A stretch of DNA of 64,000 bases from Escherichia coli (GTDB taxonomy: Bacteria; Pseudomonadota; Gammaproteobacteria; Enterobacterales; Enterobacteriaceae), in assembly GCF_016903815.1 (NCBI RefSeq), contig NZ_CP069973.1. One strand, given 5' to 3'. This document shows, in pieces, positions 5,964 to 10,495 of the stretch. The first letter of the stretch is position 1; each line of letters starts with the position of its first letter. Below the pieces are notes generated by a model. That model saw only the letters and a program-made list of their open reading frames with translations. It did no database searches and was not told the origin of the DNA. A program made the position numbers and the translations under genes.

Positions 5964-6233
5964 TCATTGCTTCATCTCCCTTTCCATTTCATCAATGTCA
6001 ACGTCATCAGGAAGATGGGAGCAATACGCCGCTATACCATGATGATTTATCTCATACCCTTTGAACGTTACCATCTGGTGCGTAATCTCAACTTCGTTCA
6101 GGAATCCGTCATCGCATAACTGCCTGGCTATTTTCGATTTGGTCTGGATTATTGGTAGTGCCTGTTCTTTCAAAGCGCATGATATTTGTGCATCCCATGC
6201 CTTTTCGAGAATGGCTAATTGTTTTTTATTCAT
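5964..6233 (-). CDS. Hypothetical protein (ren position)
   Basis: 89-aa ORF between the helicase gene and tR2. Confidence 0.4.
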   Translation of the reverse strand: MNKKQLAILEKAWDAQISCALKEQALPIIQTKSKIARQLCDDGFLNEVEITHQMVTFKGYEINHHGIAAYCSHLPDDVDIDEMEREMKQ

Positions 6234-7684
6234 CAGAATCCTCCTTTCTTCTTGGACTGCGGTTCCTCGCGTTCACGGCGGCGCATTTCAGCAGACTGTT
6301 GGTCTGTGTCATAAATAGCGCCATTTGCCTGAATGCAATACACCGTGCCGGTATTGCCATGACGATTGAGGCGAAGGATTAGTTCGGTTTCACCAGGAGG
6401 AAAGCTGTCATCAAAAGCACCTTCACGATGGATCCCAACCCAATAATCGCAATCCTGTTCAATCTGCCCTGTATCTCGTGAGTCACTTGGTAATGGGCGT
6501 TTATTGGTTCGGCTTTCCAGTGCGCGGTTAAGCTGTGTCAGAAGCACAACAACGCAATCAAGCTCTTTGGCAAGGTTCTTCAGTCCTTTGGTGATCATGC
6601 CGTAAGCAAGGTCGTTGCGATCGGCCTTTTCAGCGGTCATTAGTGTCAGGTAATCGACCAGAATCATGCCAACACATCCTTTTTCTCGCTTGATTCGACG
6701 GCTTTCGCTGACGATTTGAGCCAGAGATAATCCCGGCGTGTCGTCGATGTAAAGCAGGTCGATTTCACTCAAGCGATTGGCTGTTTCGATCGCCCTGTTG
6801 AAGTCACCATCGTAATCACCCTGATAGCCGTCATCAGCGTCATTTGTCGCCGGAAGGTAAAAAATATTGGGGTTAACACCTGACTTTTGCCCTACCAGTT
6901 TTTCCAGTATCTGGTCACCTGGCATTTCAAGGCTGAACATCAGAGCGGGCTTTTTCTCATGCACTGCGCAGTTGATTGCCATCTGGCTGTATAGCGTCGT
7001 TTTCCCCATCTTAGGGCGAGCGCCAATGACAAACAAAGAGCCTTTCACCAGACCTTTCGGTGACAGCATCCTGTCCAGCGATGGGATCCCTGTGCTCATT
7101 CCTCGTTGTTCGCCTGACGGGTCAAAACGCTTCTCAAGGTCGCTAACCCAGTCTTCCATGACCTCACCAAATGAGCGAAGTCCGCGACGCGATCCGGTTT
7201 TTGCATGGTCTGTCAGTTGCGTGAAAATCGCCTGAATAGCTTCGTACTTCTGCGTTGCAGTCATTCCGTTGCGGGAATAGAGCAATTCCGTCGCTTCAGT
7301 CATGCGGTTGATGGCGTAGCGTTCCATTGCGGTTTCGCGAACCTGCATTGCATAGGCAACGATGTTTGCTGCGCTTGGCGTGTTCTTTGCGATCTCAGCG
7401 ATATAAGCAAAACCGCCAACAGACGCCGTTAACGATTTACGCTCCAGTTCATCGAAAAGCGTCAGGCCATCTACTGGCTTTTGCTCCCGGTGCATTCTGG
7501 TTATCTCTTCGAAAAGGATTTTGTGTGGTCGGCTGTAAAATGAATCAGGCTTCAGCATCGCCAGAACTTTCTGGACGCGCTCACTGCTGTCATCATCCAG
7601 AAGCAATCCACCAATCACCGCCTGCTCTGCCTCGATGCTATGGGGCGGCGCATAAAAATTATCGGTCATCGTGTTCACCCTCAC
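6233..7684 (-). CDS. Replicative DNA helicase, DnaB family (phage-encoded)
   Basis: 483 aa; DnaB-like N-terminus (HSIEAEQAVIGGLLLD) and Walker A GARPKMGKTTL. Confidence 0.85.
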   Translation of the reverse strand: MRVNTMTDNFYAPPHSIEAEQAVIGGLLLDDDSSERVQKVLAMLKPDSFYSRPHKILFEEITRMHREQKPVDGLTLFDELERKSLTASVGGFAYIAEIAKNTPSAANIVAYAMQVRETAMERYAINRMTEATELLYSRNGMTATQKYEAIQAIFTQLTDHAKTGSRRGLRSFGEVMEDWVSDLEKRFDPSGEQRGMSTGIPSLDRMLSPKGLVKGSLFVIGARPKMGKTTLYSQMAINCAVHEKKPALMFSLEMPGDQILEKLVGQKSGVNPNIFYLPATNDADDGYQGDYDGDFNRAIETANRLSEIDLLYIDDTPGLSLAQIVSESRRIKREKGCVGMILVDYLTLMTAEKADRNDLAYGMITKGLKNLAKELDCVVVLLTQLNRALESRTNKRPLPSDSRDTGQIEQDCDYWVGIHREGAFDDSFPPGETELILRLNRHGNTGTVYCIQANGAIYDTDQQSAEMRRREREEPQSKKKGGF

Positions 7685-8558
7685 GAACTTTCAGGTAGGT
7701 ATTGTCGTTAAGCAGGAAATCAAATCCCTTTTTGTGCCAGACGGTTCCGCGTTGATGGTTTGGGCGTTCTTCGAACATCCATCGGCAATTTTCGCCTACG
7801 TAGCTCAAATAATTTCTCCAGTCCTGCATCGTGAACCCATGTCCGTCAAGCTGGCGGGTTATCACTCCGGCTTTGCGCCAGAACGTTCGGATCTGGTTTT
7901 TACGCTTGTCATTCAGTGCGCGGATTCTTGGCGCTTCAGGAAGGATTTCGTGGTAAGCATCGACAACATCCTGACAGCTGACGGAAGGTTTTTTCTTGTC
8001 AGACTTTTTGTCTGCTGTGGCACTCTCTAATACGTCAGTATTAGAGATAATATTATTATATTCTTTATCTGTGGTAATTTGCTGGTAATCTGCTGGTACA
8101 GTATTGCTTGCAGGCATTGGTATTGCTGGCTTTGAGGTGGTAATTTGCTGGTAATCTGCTGGTACAAAACTTGACTGATAATCGTCATATTTCTCTACCG
8201 AGAAAACTGAGAATTTACCGTGTGAAACCCAGTCAATCATGCCGAGTTTTTTGAACTTTCTAAGCAGGTACTGAACGCGATCTGGTTTGAGTCCTGTTTC
8301 AAACGCCAGAGAGTTTCTACCGCCAAGTAGCTTCCCTCTGCCTACCAGAATTTCTCCTGCGTCAGTCATTACATACTCAGGCGTATGCTTTGCTTTGAGG
8401 ATTAAGTGAACCCACAGATGCGCTGCTTCTGCGTCCTTGTAAAACGGCACATCCATAATTTTACGGTGCAGCAAGGCATACCCCTTACCGCTGCTTTGAT
8501 GCGGTTGTTGTAGCCTTCTGGCCTCTCTGGCTTCGGCTAGATTAGATATGTTACTCAT
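7659..8558 (-). CDS. Replication initiator, lambda O-like, with internal origin repeats
   Basis: Position between cII and the helicase; contains direct DNA repeats encoding a duplicated [10 protein letters not shown] peptide. Confidence 0.65.
8071..8166. repeat. Origin-like iterons inside the O-like gene: two identical 30-bp direct repeats (8071-8100, 8137-8166) beside an AT-rich stretch (8041-8070)
   Basis: GTGGTAATTTGCTGGTAATCTGCTGGTACA appears twice; the lambda origin likewise lies inside O. Confidence 0.5.
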
Positions 8559-8697
8559 GACCTTTCTCCTTCTGCATCAGCTTCACTTTTTCCAACTCAG
8601 CCCGAAATCGACCAGGCTGCTTGAAGCTGGACAGGAAGCGATCACGTAGTATGTGTTTGTGAATTTTGTCCTGGTAAGGACTGAGTTGTTTTGTCAT
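8551..8697 (-). CDS. Small basic ORF (48 aa) between cII and the O-like gene, not on the ORF track
   Basis: My own translation [21 protein letters not shown]...; its stop overlaps the O-like start codon. Confidence 0.25.
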
Positions 8698-8729
8698 AAT
8701 TACTCCTGTGGATTGATCCAGTAATGACC

Positions 8730-9023
8730 TCAGAACTCCATCTGGATTTGTTCAGAACGCTCGGTTGCCGCCGGGCGTTTTTTATTGGTGAGAATCGAAG
8801 CAACTTGTCGTGCCAATCGAGCCATATCGTCGTCAACGACGCCCCATTCAAGAACAGCAAGCAGCATTGAGAACTTTGGAATCCAGTCCCTCTTCCACCT
8901 GCTGATCTGCGACTTATCAACTCCTACAGCTTCCGCTGTCTTCTCAGTTCCAAGCATTGCGATTTTGTTAAGCAACGCACTCTCGATTCGTAGAGCCTCG
9001 TTGCGTTTGTTTGCACGAACCAT
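8730..9023 (-). CDS. cII: Transcriptional activator CII
   Basis: From the internal Met, [51 protein letters not shown]... matches recalled lambda CII. Confidence 0.85.

Positions 9024-9142: not shown

Positions 9143-10495
<1,353 letters not shown>

What the first reader, a model, noticed from the sequence alone, without database searches (positions are those of the whole stretch)
8551..8697. Possible 48-aa ORF between cII and the O-like gene
A short basic ORF not on the track whose stop overlaps the O-like start codon; lambda has no gene in this interval. It may be real or a chance reading frame.
Basis: seen in the sequence. Interest (0 to 1): 0.15.

Follow-up and report, generated by a model that had tools for sequence, protein, structure and literature searches.

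The report
Known small phage gene orf48 (DUF2740)
The 48-codon reading frame is a real, conserved and already catalogued small phage gene (P22 orf48 / HK620 hkaW / Pfam DUF2740) of unknown function that sits just upstream of the phage's DNA-replication initiator gene and overlaps its start; here it was found only in phages that carry their own replicative helicase.

Summary
The ORF at 8551-8697 (minus strand) is exactly as described: 48 aa, basic (pI 10.1), and its TAA lies inside an 8-nt ATGAGTAA overlap with the O-like start. It is not a chance frame.

- **Identity:** it matches Pfam DUF2740 over its full length (E 9e-29). It is identical to the HK022 orf48, HK620 hkaW and VT2-Sakai proteins and 85% identical to P22 orf48. 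RefSeq annotates it as a "DUF2740 family protein". Hayes et al. 2012 state that lambda naturally lacks this gene.
- **Translation signals:** it uses the Shine-Dalgarno site and ATGACAAA start that lambda uses for O.
- **Selection:** dN/dS is 0.08-0.46, and only this frame is open in ten divergent homologues.
- **Fold:** the predicted structure is a two-helix hairpin with no informative structural match.
- **Function:** none is published.
- **New observation:** in lambdoid loci, a small basic ORF abutting the initiator start (DUF2740 or one of three other types) was present in every helicase-encoding replication module sampled (40/40 and 74/74). It was almost never present in loader-encoding lambda-P or DnaC-like modules (0/14, 1/72, 4/76).

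I therefore infer an accessory role at the helicase step of replication; the mechanism is unproven. As a finding this is ordinary and already known.

The parts
8551..8697 (-). orf48 / DUF2740 coding sequence (48 aa plus TAA)
   Evidence: ORF list. Pfam PF10872 at 99.4 bits against a cut-off of 27, covering profile positions 1-43 of 43. Identical protein in HK022, HK620 and VT2-Sakai. RefSeq 'DUF2740 family protein' WP_000166207.1 at a 100% identical locus. dN/dS 0.08-0.46, and the only frame open in all ten divergent members.
8703..8707 (-). Shine-Dalgarno AGGAG of orf48, the same SD and ATGACAAA start that lambda uses for gene O
   Evidence: Read from the sequence. ACAGGAGTAATTATG is identical in the window, P22 and the Erwinia phage. 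Lambda homology extends through it.
8551..8558 (-). ATGAGTAA stop/start overlap between orf48 and the initiator gene (translational coupling junction)
   Evidence: Sequence. The downstream gene started with ATG at stop-8 in 83 of 83 loci, and always with MSN. The same 8-nt overlap is annotated in P22 and in the Erwinia phage.
8566..8571 (-). AAGGAG Shine-Dalgarno of the O-like gene, embedded in orf48 codons 42-44
   Evidence: Read from the sequence.
8672..8700 (+). Antisense oop promoter pO, overlapping the orf48 start codon and first codons (placed by homology)
   Evidence: The P22 record annotates the oop promoter from 3 nt upstream of the orf48 ATG to 26 nt inside it. Hayes 2012 places a lambda-type -10 and a P22-type -35 here. 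My consensus scan did not call it.
8754..8781 (+). oop terminator (12-bp stem plus T-run), antisense to the cII 3' end
   Evidence: Terminator scan; matches the annotated oop terminator in P22.
8730..9023 (-). cII gene (upstream neighbour)
   Evidence: Pfam Phage_CII E 1.7e-48; 97.6% DNA identity to lambda.
7659..8558 (-). Replication initiator (O-like, 299 aa; HK022/HK620/VT2-Sakai type)
   Evidence: phrog_345 'replication initiation O-like' E 3.5e-87; same protein in HK620 and VT2-Sakai loci.
8071..8166 (.). Iteron-like repeats inside the initiator gene (probable origin)
   Evidence: Perfect 30-nt repeat at 8071-8100 and 8137-8166, built of 11-bp sub-repeats. The flanking region is AT-rich, GC 0.35-0.37. 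P22 annotates its origin inside gene 18.
6233..7684 (-). Phage-encoded DnaB-family replicative helicase (RefSeq starts it at the ATG 15 nt downstream, 478 aa)
   Evidence: Pfam DnaB (3.5e-31) and DnaB_C (4e-60); RefSeq annotation.

Best explanation
This is the P22 orf48 / HK022 orf48 / HK620 hkaW gene (Pfam DUF2740). It is a real protein-coding gene in the early-right (pR) operon and the first cistron of the replication module. It is translated from the strong SD and ATG that lambda uses for O. Its stop overlaps the initiator's ATG, so ribosomes finishing orf48 can reinitiate on the initiator (translational coupling). The product is a 5.8-kDa, strongly basic, two-helix hairpin with an invariant HK[NH]I[LI]RDR core. 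Its function is inferred, not shown. It is not tied to cII. It travels with the initiator and helicase genes, and it occurs only in modules that bring their own replicative helicase. I therefore think it is most likely a small accessory factor for the helicase step of phage replication: recruiting, loading or activating the phage helicase at the origin, or coupling it to the host replisome. Shown: gene identity, conservation, selection, signals, synteny and co-occurrence. Inferred: that it is translated in vivo, and any molecular activity.
For: Identity: Pfam DUF2740 E 8.9e-29, 127 phage records, RefSeq annotation, literature. Selection: 81 identical copies carry only 4 variable sites, all synonymous third positions; dN/dS is 0.08-0.46; codon-position entropy is 35/28/52; only this frame is open in all 10 divergent members. 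Linkage to the replication module rather than to cII: in L091 a 249-aa gene separates cII from DUF2740, which still overlaps the initiator; in L093/L094 the upstream gene is YdaT, not CII. Co-occurrence with helicases in the sample anchored on cII: 40 of 40 helicase modules carry a small ORF (DUF2740 21, gp53-type 10, C8 6, C17 3), against 0 of 14 loader modules. Co-occurrence in samples anchored on the second replication gene: lambda-P 1 of 72, DnaC-like 4 of 76 (these few small ORFs are unrelated), P22-gp12-type helicase 74 of 74. All 80 loci anchored on orf48 carry either a DnaB-like helicase or a Toprim+DnaB_C primase-helicase module. The same initiator family (Phage_rep_O) appears with a small ORF when its partner is a helicase and without one when its partner is a loader.
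Confidence: 0.45

Rival explanations
1. Host-directed inhibitor. The small protein neutralises host DnaB or DnaC, shutting down host replication and that of competing lambda-type phages. Only phages that carry their own helicase can afford this. It would work like S. aureus phage 77 ORF104, a 52-aa inhibitor of the host loader DnaI (from my own knowledge).
For: It explains both the strict association with helicase-encoding modules and the free mixing of one identical orf48 with unrelated initiators and three helicase types, because the target would be a constant host protein.
Against: P22 phagemids carrying PR-cro-c1-orf48-18-12 are stably maintained in Salmonella (PMC8585504), which is hard to reconcile with a potent block of host replication. 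There is no sequence match to any solved structure, ORF104 included (best E 1.4).
Confidence: 0.15
2. Translational-coupling leader only. The ORF exists so that ribosomes starting at the conserved lambda-type SD/ATG are delivered to the initiator start, and the peptide itself does nothing.
For: The 8-nt stop/start overlap is invariant (83 of 83). The ORF uses the conserved cII-O junction signals. Several unrelated small ORFs fill the same slot.
Against: The amino-acid sequence is conserved well beyond the junction. dN/dS is 0.08-0.46, with synonymous changes inside the invariant HKxILRDRF core. The initiator also has its own AAGGAG SD.
Confidence: 0.1
3. Lysis-lysogeny regulator acting with cII and oop, for example a cIII-like stabiliser of CII or a modulator of the oop promoter.
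For: It usually lies directly after a CII-family gene (83 of 83). Its start overlaps pO. It is a small helical protein like CIII.
Against: hhalign against CIII gives a probability of 0.3%, and loci with DUF2740 carry their own cIII. It stays with the initiator when separated from cII and also occurs after YdaT. Lambda has a near-identical cII without it. Its presence tracks the helicase, not the cII type.
Confidence: 0.1
4. Unrelated accessory ('moron'-like) gene, such as an anti-defence function, that happens to lodge at a recombination-prone module junction.
For: Recombination occurs on both sides of it. The slot holds diverse small genes and occasional insertions of HNH or other genes.
Against: There is no PADLOC match. 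The strict link to helicase modules and the overlap with the initiator are not expected for a free-standing accessory gene.
Confidence: 0.12
5. Chance open reading frame with no product.
For: ORFs of this length are common (217 in the window).
Against: Family membership, the SD site, conservation of length, frame and overlap at 58% identity, and purifying selection.
Confidence: 0.01

Closest known systems
P22 orf48 / HK022 orf48 / HK620 hkaW / VT2-Sakai H0097 (Pfam DUF2740, PHROG 1913)
   Same: Same gene. It is 100% identical to the HK022, HK620 and VT2-Sakai proteins and 85% identical to P22 orf48. It has the same position between oop/cII and the initiator and the same 8-nt overlap.
   Different: Nothing material. 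The window combines a lambda-type cII with the HK022/HK620-type replication module.
Lambda cII-O junction
   Same: Same cII, oop, pO -10, SD and ATGACAAA start. The 32-nt cII-to-start spacing is identical.
   Different: In lambda that start opens gene O itself, and lambda has no small ORF. Lambda uses the P loader and host DnaB instead of its own helicase.
HK97 gp53-type small ORF (HK446, SH2026Stx1, Cronobacter ENT47670)
   Same: Same slot, similar size (52-53 aa) and charge (pI 10.7). It overlaps the initiator start and is found with helicase modules, including a homologue of the window's own initiator.
   Different: No significant sequence similarity beyond an MTK..YQ[DE]K N-terminus (3.3 bits). 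It is predicted as a disordered N-terminus plus one long helix, not a hairpin.
S. aureus phage 77 ORF104 (small inhibitor of the host helicase loader DnaI); from my own knowledge
   Same: A roughly 50-aa phage protein encoded in a replication module that supplies its own helicase-handling function. It is a possible functional analogue.
   Different: No sequence match. A different host and a different phage group. The resemblance is a lead, not a test.
Helicase-binding helical elements of DnaC, lambda P and DciA; from my own knowledge
   Same: Short helical elements that dock on DnaB-family helicases. orf48 is a two-helix hairpin found only where a phage helicase lacks a loader gene.

Membership tests
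Pfam DUF2740 (PF10872) / P22 orf48 family | Scores above the Pfam gathering cut-off over the whole domain | tested here: met
   99.4 bits against a cut-off of 27; residues 6-48 match profile positions 1-43 of 43.
Pfam DUF2740 (PF10872) / P22 orf48 family | About 46-50 aa with the HK[NH]I[LI]RD core and the E..K.K second helix | tested here: met
   Alignment A1 has invariant H13 K14 I16 R18 D19 R20 L22 E34 K39. Divergent members P0059 and P0068 keep the core.
Pfam DUF2740 (PF10872) / P22 orf48 family | Located in the lambdoid early-right operon, immediately upstream of the replication initiator and overlapping its start | tested here: met
   Window, P22, Erwinia phage, and Klebsiella, Pluralibacter and other contigs.
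Lambda CIII family (PF02061) | Sequence or profile similarity to CIII | tested here: not met
   No Pfam hit at E up to 1; hhalign probability 0.3%.
Non-coding or peptide-irrelevant coupling leader (upstream ORF) | Stop overlaps the downstream start | tested here: met
   ATGAGTAA in 83 of 83 loci.
Non-coding or peptide-irrelevant coupling leader (upstream ORF) | Peptide sequence free to drift (dN/dS near 1) | tested here: not met
   dN/dS 0.08-0.46.
Tail protein (the label PHROG 1913 and several RefSeq phage records give this family) | Encoded in the late structural module, or similar to a known tail component | tested here: not met
   It always lies in the early replication module. No structural match. 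No PDB sequence match.
Helicase loaders or loader inhibitors (DnaC NTD, lambda P, DciA, phage 77 ORF104) | Sequence or fold similarity to a known member | tested here: not met
Helicase loaders or loader inhibitors (DnaC NTD, lambda P, DciA, phage 77 ORF104) | Physical binding to a DnaB-family helicase or its loader | not testable with these tools
   This needs pull-downs or multimer structure prediction. Only monomer models without coordinates were available.
Known anti-phage defence components (PADLOC) | Match to a defence-system model | tested here: not met
   0 families at E up to 1.

The most novel reading that the evidence does not exclude
DUF2740, together with the non-homologous gp53-type, C17 and C8 small basic ORFs that occupy the same slot, could define an unrecognised component of initiator-plus-helicase lambdoid replication modules. 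This would be a roughly 50-residue protein, co-translated with the initiator, that is needed to load or activate a phage-encoded DnaB-family helicase, or to couple it to the host replisome. In effect it would take the place of a lambda-P or DnaC-type loader.
Probability: 0.25. Interest if true: 0.55.

Novelty: already known. Interest (0 to 1): 0.2.

Why it matters
As a finding it matters little. The gene has been annotated in P22 and HK022 for decades, has a Pfam family, and is called by RefSeq, so the scan simply recovered a gene missing from one track. Two by-products are more useful. First, PHROG 1913 and several RefSeq phage records label this early replication-module gene as "tail protein", which is almost certainly a propagated error. 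Second, small initiator-overlapping ORFs associate strictly with helicase-encoding replication modules and not with loader-encoding ones. That gives a concrete, cheap-to-test hypothesis for an orphan family, and for how P22-type phages handle their own helicase without a recognisable loader.

Tried and rejected
1. **cIII-like FtsH inhibitor.** This was a "QPG" resemblance recalled from memory. hhalign gives a probability of 0.3%, and loci with DUF2740 have their own cIII. Rejected.
2. **"orf48 = gnarl1" in the accessory-gene screens.** This is a naming coincidence. gnarl1 is a library number and the gene is found in lytic phages.
4. **Other libraries.** NCBIfam, PADLOC, the PDB sequence search and Rfam all gave nothing.
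5. **Remote homology between DUF2740 and the other slot ORFs.** C17 scores 6.8 bits, gp53 3.3 and C8 2.0, which is too weak to claim. gp53 is predicted as a single helix.
6. **Specific pairing with the initiator.** This is disfavoured, because the identical protein precedes two initiators with no detectable similarity.
8. **Fused-chain AlphaFold complex.** Not attempted, because the tool returns no coordinates or PAE, so an interface could not have been judged.
9. **Consensus promoter scan.** It did not call pO, so pO is placed by homology only.

Full report
**Observation.**
The minus strand of the window carries cII (8730-9023), a 48-codon ORF (8551-8697), a 299-aa O-like initiator (7659-8558) and a DnaB-family helicase (6233-7684), in that order. 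The ORF encodes [48 protein letters not shown], with pI 10.1. AGGAG lies 5 nt upstream of its ATG. Its last codons (GGT CAT GAG TAA) contain the initiator's ATG, giving an 8-nt overlap. An AAGGAG for the initiator lies inside orf48 codons 42-44. The description is therefore accurate. Length alone is not evidence: the window has 217 ATG-ORFs of at least 48 aa, against about 128 in shuffles.

**Identity.**
- The protein matches Pfam DUF2740 over the full domain (99.4 bits, cut-off 27) and PHROG 1913.
- tblastn finds it in 127 phage records. It is identical in HK022, HK620 (hkaW), VT2-Sakai (H0097), Stx2 II, mEp043 and mEp235. P22 orf48 is 85% identical, and an Erwinia phage copy is 58% identical.
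- RefSeq annotates 100% identical E. coli loci as "DUF2740 family protein", WP_000166207.1.
- A 1994 HK022 GenBank entry already reads "orf48 ... well conserved in phage P22; unknown".
- Hayes et al. [quoted passage not shown] They also describe a lambda/P22 hybrid with lambda cII followed by orf48-18-12, the same layout as this window (PMC3349717).
- Lambda homology in the window stops about 10 nt inside the ORF. So orf48 uses the SD and ATGACAAA start that lambda uses for O.
- The antisense oop promoter overlaps that start (P22 annotation). The oop terminator is at 8754-8781.

**Is it a gene?**
- Eighty-one loci encoding the identical protein differ at only four nucleotide positions, all synonymous third positions.
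- Ten divergent members come from E. coli, Salmonella/P22, Klebsiella, Pluralibacter, an Erwinia phage and five further assembly or metagenome contigs. For them, pairwise dN/dS is 0.08-0.46 wherever dS is not saturated, and variability runs third > first > second codon position. Only the annotated frame is open in all ten.
- The 46-50 aa length and the stop/start overlap persist at 58% identity.
- The family is narrow, with 18 hits at E up to 1e-3 among 1.84 billion representatives. It is confined to enterobacterial lambdoid elements.
- AlphaFold predicts a two-helix hairpin, H7-23 and H28-44, with mean pLDDT 80.
- The invariant residues form an HK[NH]I[LI]RDR.L core in helix 1, plus E34 and K39 in helix 2. 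The invariant C-terminal GHE is dictated at least partly by the overlapping start of the next gene.

**What it travels with.**
- In 83 loci the upstream gene is a CII-family gene and the downstream gene starts at stop-8 with MSN.
- The identical orf48 precedes two initiators with no detectable similarity (BLASTP E 1.6). One is the window, HK022, HK620 and VT2-Sakai type, followed by a DnaB-like helicase. The other is a Phage_rep_O type, followed by a 626-aa Toprim+DnaB_C primase-helicase. P22 pairs it with gp18 and gp12.
- In one Logan-assembly contig (L091) an extra 249-aa gene separates cII from DUF2740, which still overlaps the initiator. In L093/L094 the upstream gene is YdaT rather than CII.
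- The constant partner is therefore the initiator-plus-helicase module, not cII.

**A broader pattern.**
- In 80 loci anchored on a lambda-type cII, and so chosen without regard to orf48, every module that encodes a helicase has a small ORF between cII and the initiator. The total is 40 of 40: DUF2740 21, HK97-gp53-type 10, a 90-aa C8 type 6 and a 47-aa C17 type 3.
- No module encoding a loader has one. The total is 0 of 14: lambda P 9, and DnaC-like IstB AAA+ 5.
- In samples anchored on the second replication gene, lambda-P loci have a small ORF abutting the initiator in 1 of 72, and DnaC-like loci in 4 of 76. These few ORFs are unrelated to the four types.
- P22-gp12-type helicase loci have one in 74 of 74: DUF2740 37, gp53-type 20 and C8 17.
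- Cronobacter phage ENT47670 pairs a homologue of the window's initiator with a gp53-type ORF, so the small ORFs are interchangeable.
- All four types are strongly basic, with pI 10.0-10.7. They are not demonstrably homologous (2-7 bits), and gp53 is predicted as one long helix.
- Caveat: these samples are dominated by near-identical E. coli and Salmonella prophages. At the level of distinct module combinations the contrast is 7 of 7 against 0 of 3.

**Mechanism.**
No paper gives a function. The SieA preprint notes only that the region is not needed for prophage maintenance.

I commit to the following reading. orf48 is translated early from the pR transcript and is coupled to the initiator. 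It encodes an accessory factor for the helicase step of replication in phages that supply their own helicase. I put this at about 0.45.

The main rival is a host-directed DnaB or DnaC inhibitor. It explains the free mixing with different initiators and helicases. It is weakened by the stable maintenance of P22 phagemids carrying cro-c1-orf48-18-12 (PMC8585504).

A pure coupling leader is contradicted by the purifying selection. A cII or cIII-type lysogeny role is contradicted by hhalign (0.3%), by the presence of cIII genes in the same loci, and by the linkage data. Fold searches were uninformative.

**Verdict.**
The gene is already known, with unknown function, so the finding is ordinary and scores low. 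Two items are worth passing on: the helicase-module association, and the evidently wrong "tail protein" label that PHROG 1913 and several RefSeq phage records attach to this family.

Noticed in passing
window 8551-8697; phage records (e.g. NC_002371.2, NC_019706.1, NC_008464.1, NC_070949.1): PHROG 1913 and several RefSeq phage records label this 48-aa early-operon gene 'tail protein'. Its constant position in the replication module, with no structural or sequence support for a tail role, makes this look like a propagated annotation error.
   Followed up: partly
L099-L178 (cII-anchored), L180-L418 (anchored on lambda-P, DnaC-like loader or gp12-type helicase): A small basic ORF abutting the initiator start is present in all sampled helicase-encoding lambdoid replication modules (40/40, 74/74). 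It is essentially absent from modules encoding lambda-P or DnaC-like loaders (0/14, 1/72, 4/76). At least four non-homologous ORF types fill the slot.
   Followed up: yes
window 8071-8166 (inside the O-like gene): A perfect 30-nt direct repeat (8071-8100 and 8137-8166), built of 11-bp CTGGTAAT-like sub-repeats and next to an AT-rich patch (GC 0.35). This is probably the iterons of the replication origin, located inside the initiator gene as in lambda and P22.
   Followed up: partly
L117 5317-5589 (the C8-type 90-aa ORF; also L105, L131, L152, L398 and others): The 90-aa slot ORF looks chimeric. Its N-terminus carries an HK..R.RFL stretch reminiscent of DUF2740 helix 1. Its C-terminal third weakly matches the start of the Phage_rep_O domain (E 0.048). 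It may be a recombination scar that remains open.
   Followed up: partly
three DnaC-like-anchored loci within L260-L339: A 64-aa ORF (MPAINEKANQHATHKCSFCDRS...CDNC...) overlaps the initiator start by 17 nt in three loader-type modules. Its CxxC...CxxC pattern resembles a ClpX-type zinc finger.
   Followed up: no
L012, L142 and two other loci (DOWN2 cluster n=4): A 164-aa NUMOD4/HNH_3 homing-endonuclease gene is inserted between the Phage_rep_O initiator and the primase-helicase in some otherwise identical modules.
   Followed up: partly
L099 (third gene after cII, cluster C20): A P22-gp12-like helicase ORF of 797 aa, against the usual 458 aa. It may carry an intein or another insertion.
   Followed up: no
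window 10019-10495 (+), overlapping the end of the cI-like repressor gene (9462-10094): A 158-aa ORF contains an internal start followed by a signal-peptide-like stretch ([20 protein letters not shown]). RefSeq annotates a 134-aa hypothetical protein here. It may be a prophage-expressed secreted protein or lipoprotein next to the repressor.
   Followed up: no
window 8548-8649 (+): A 33-aa ORF runs antisense to orf48. All three antisense frames across the orf48 interval contain at least one stop in the window, and no antisense frame is stop-free in all ten divergent homologues. I take it to be a chance frame.
   Followed up: yes
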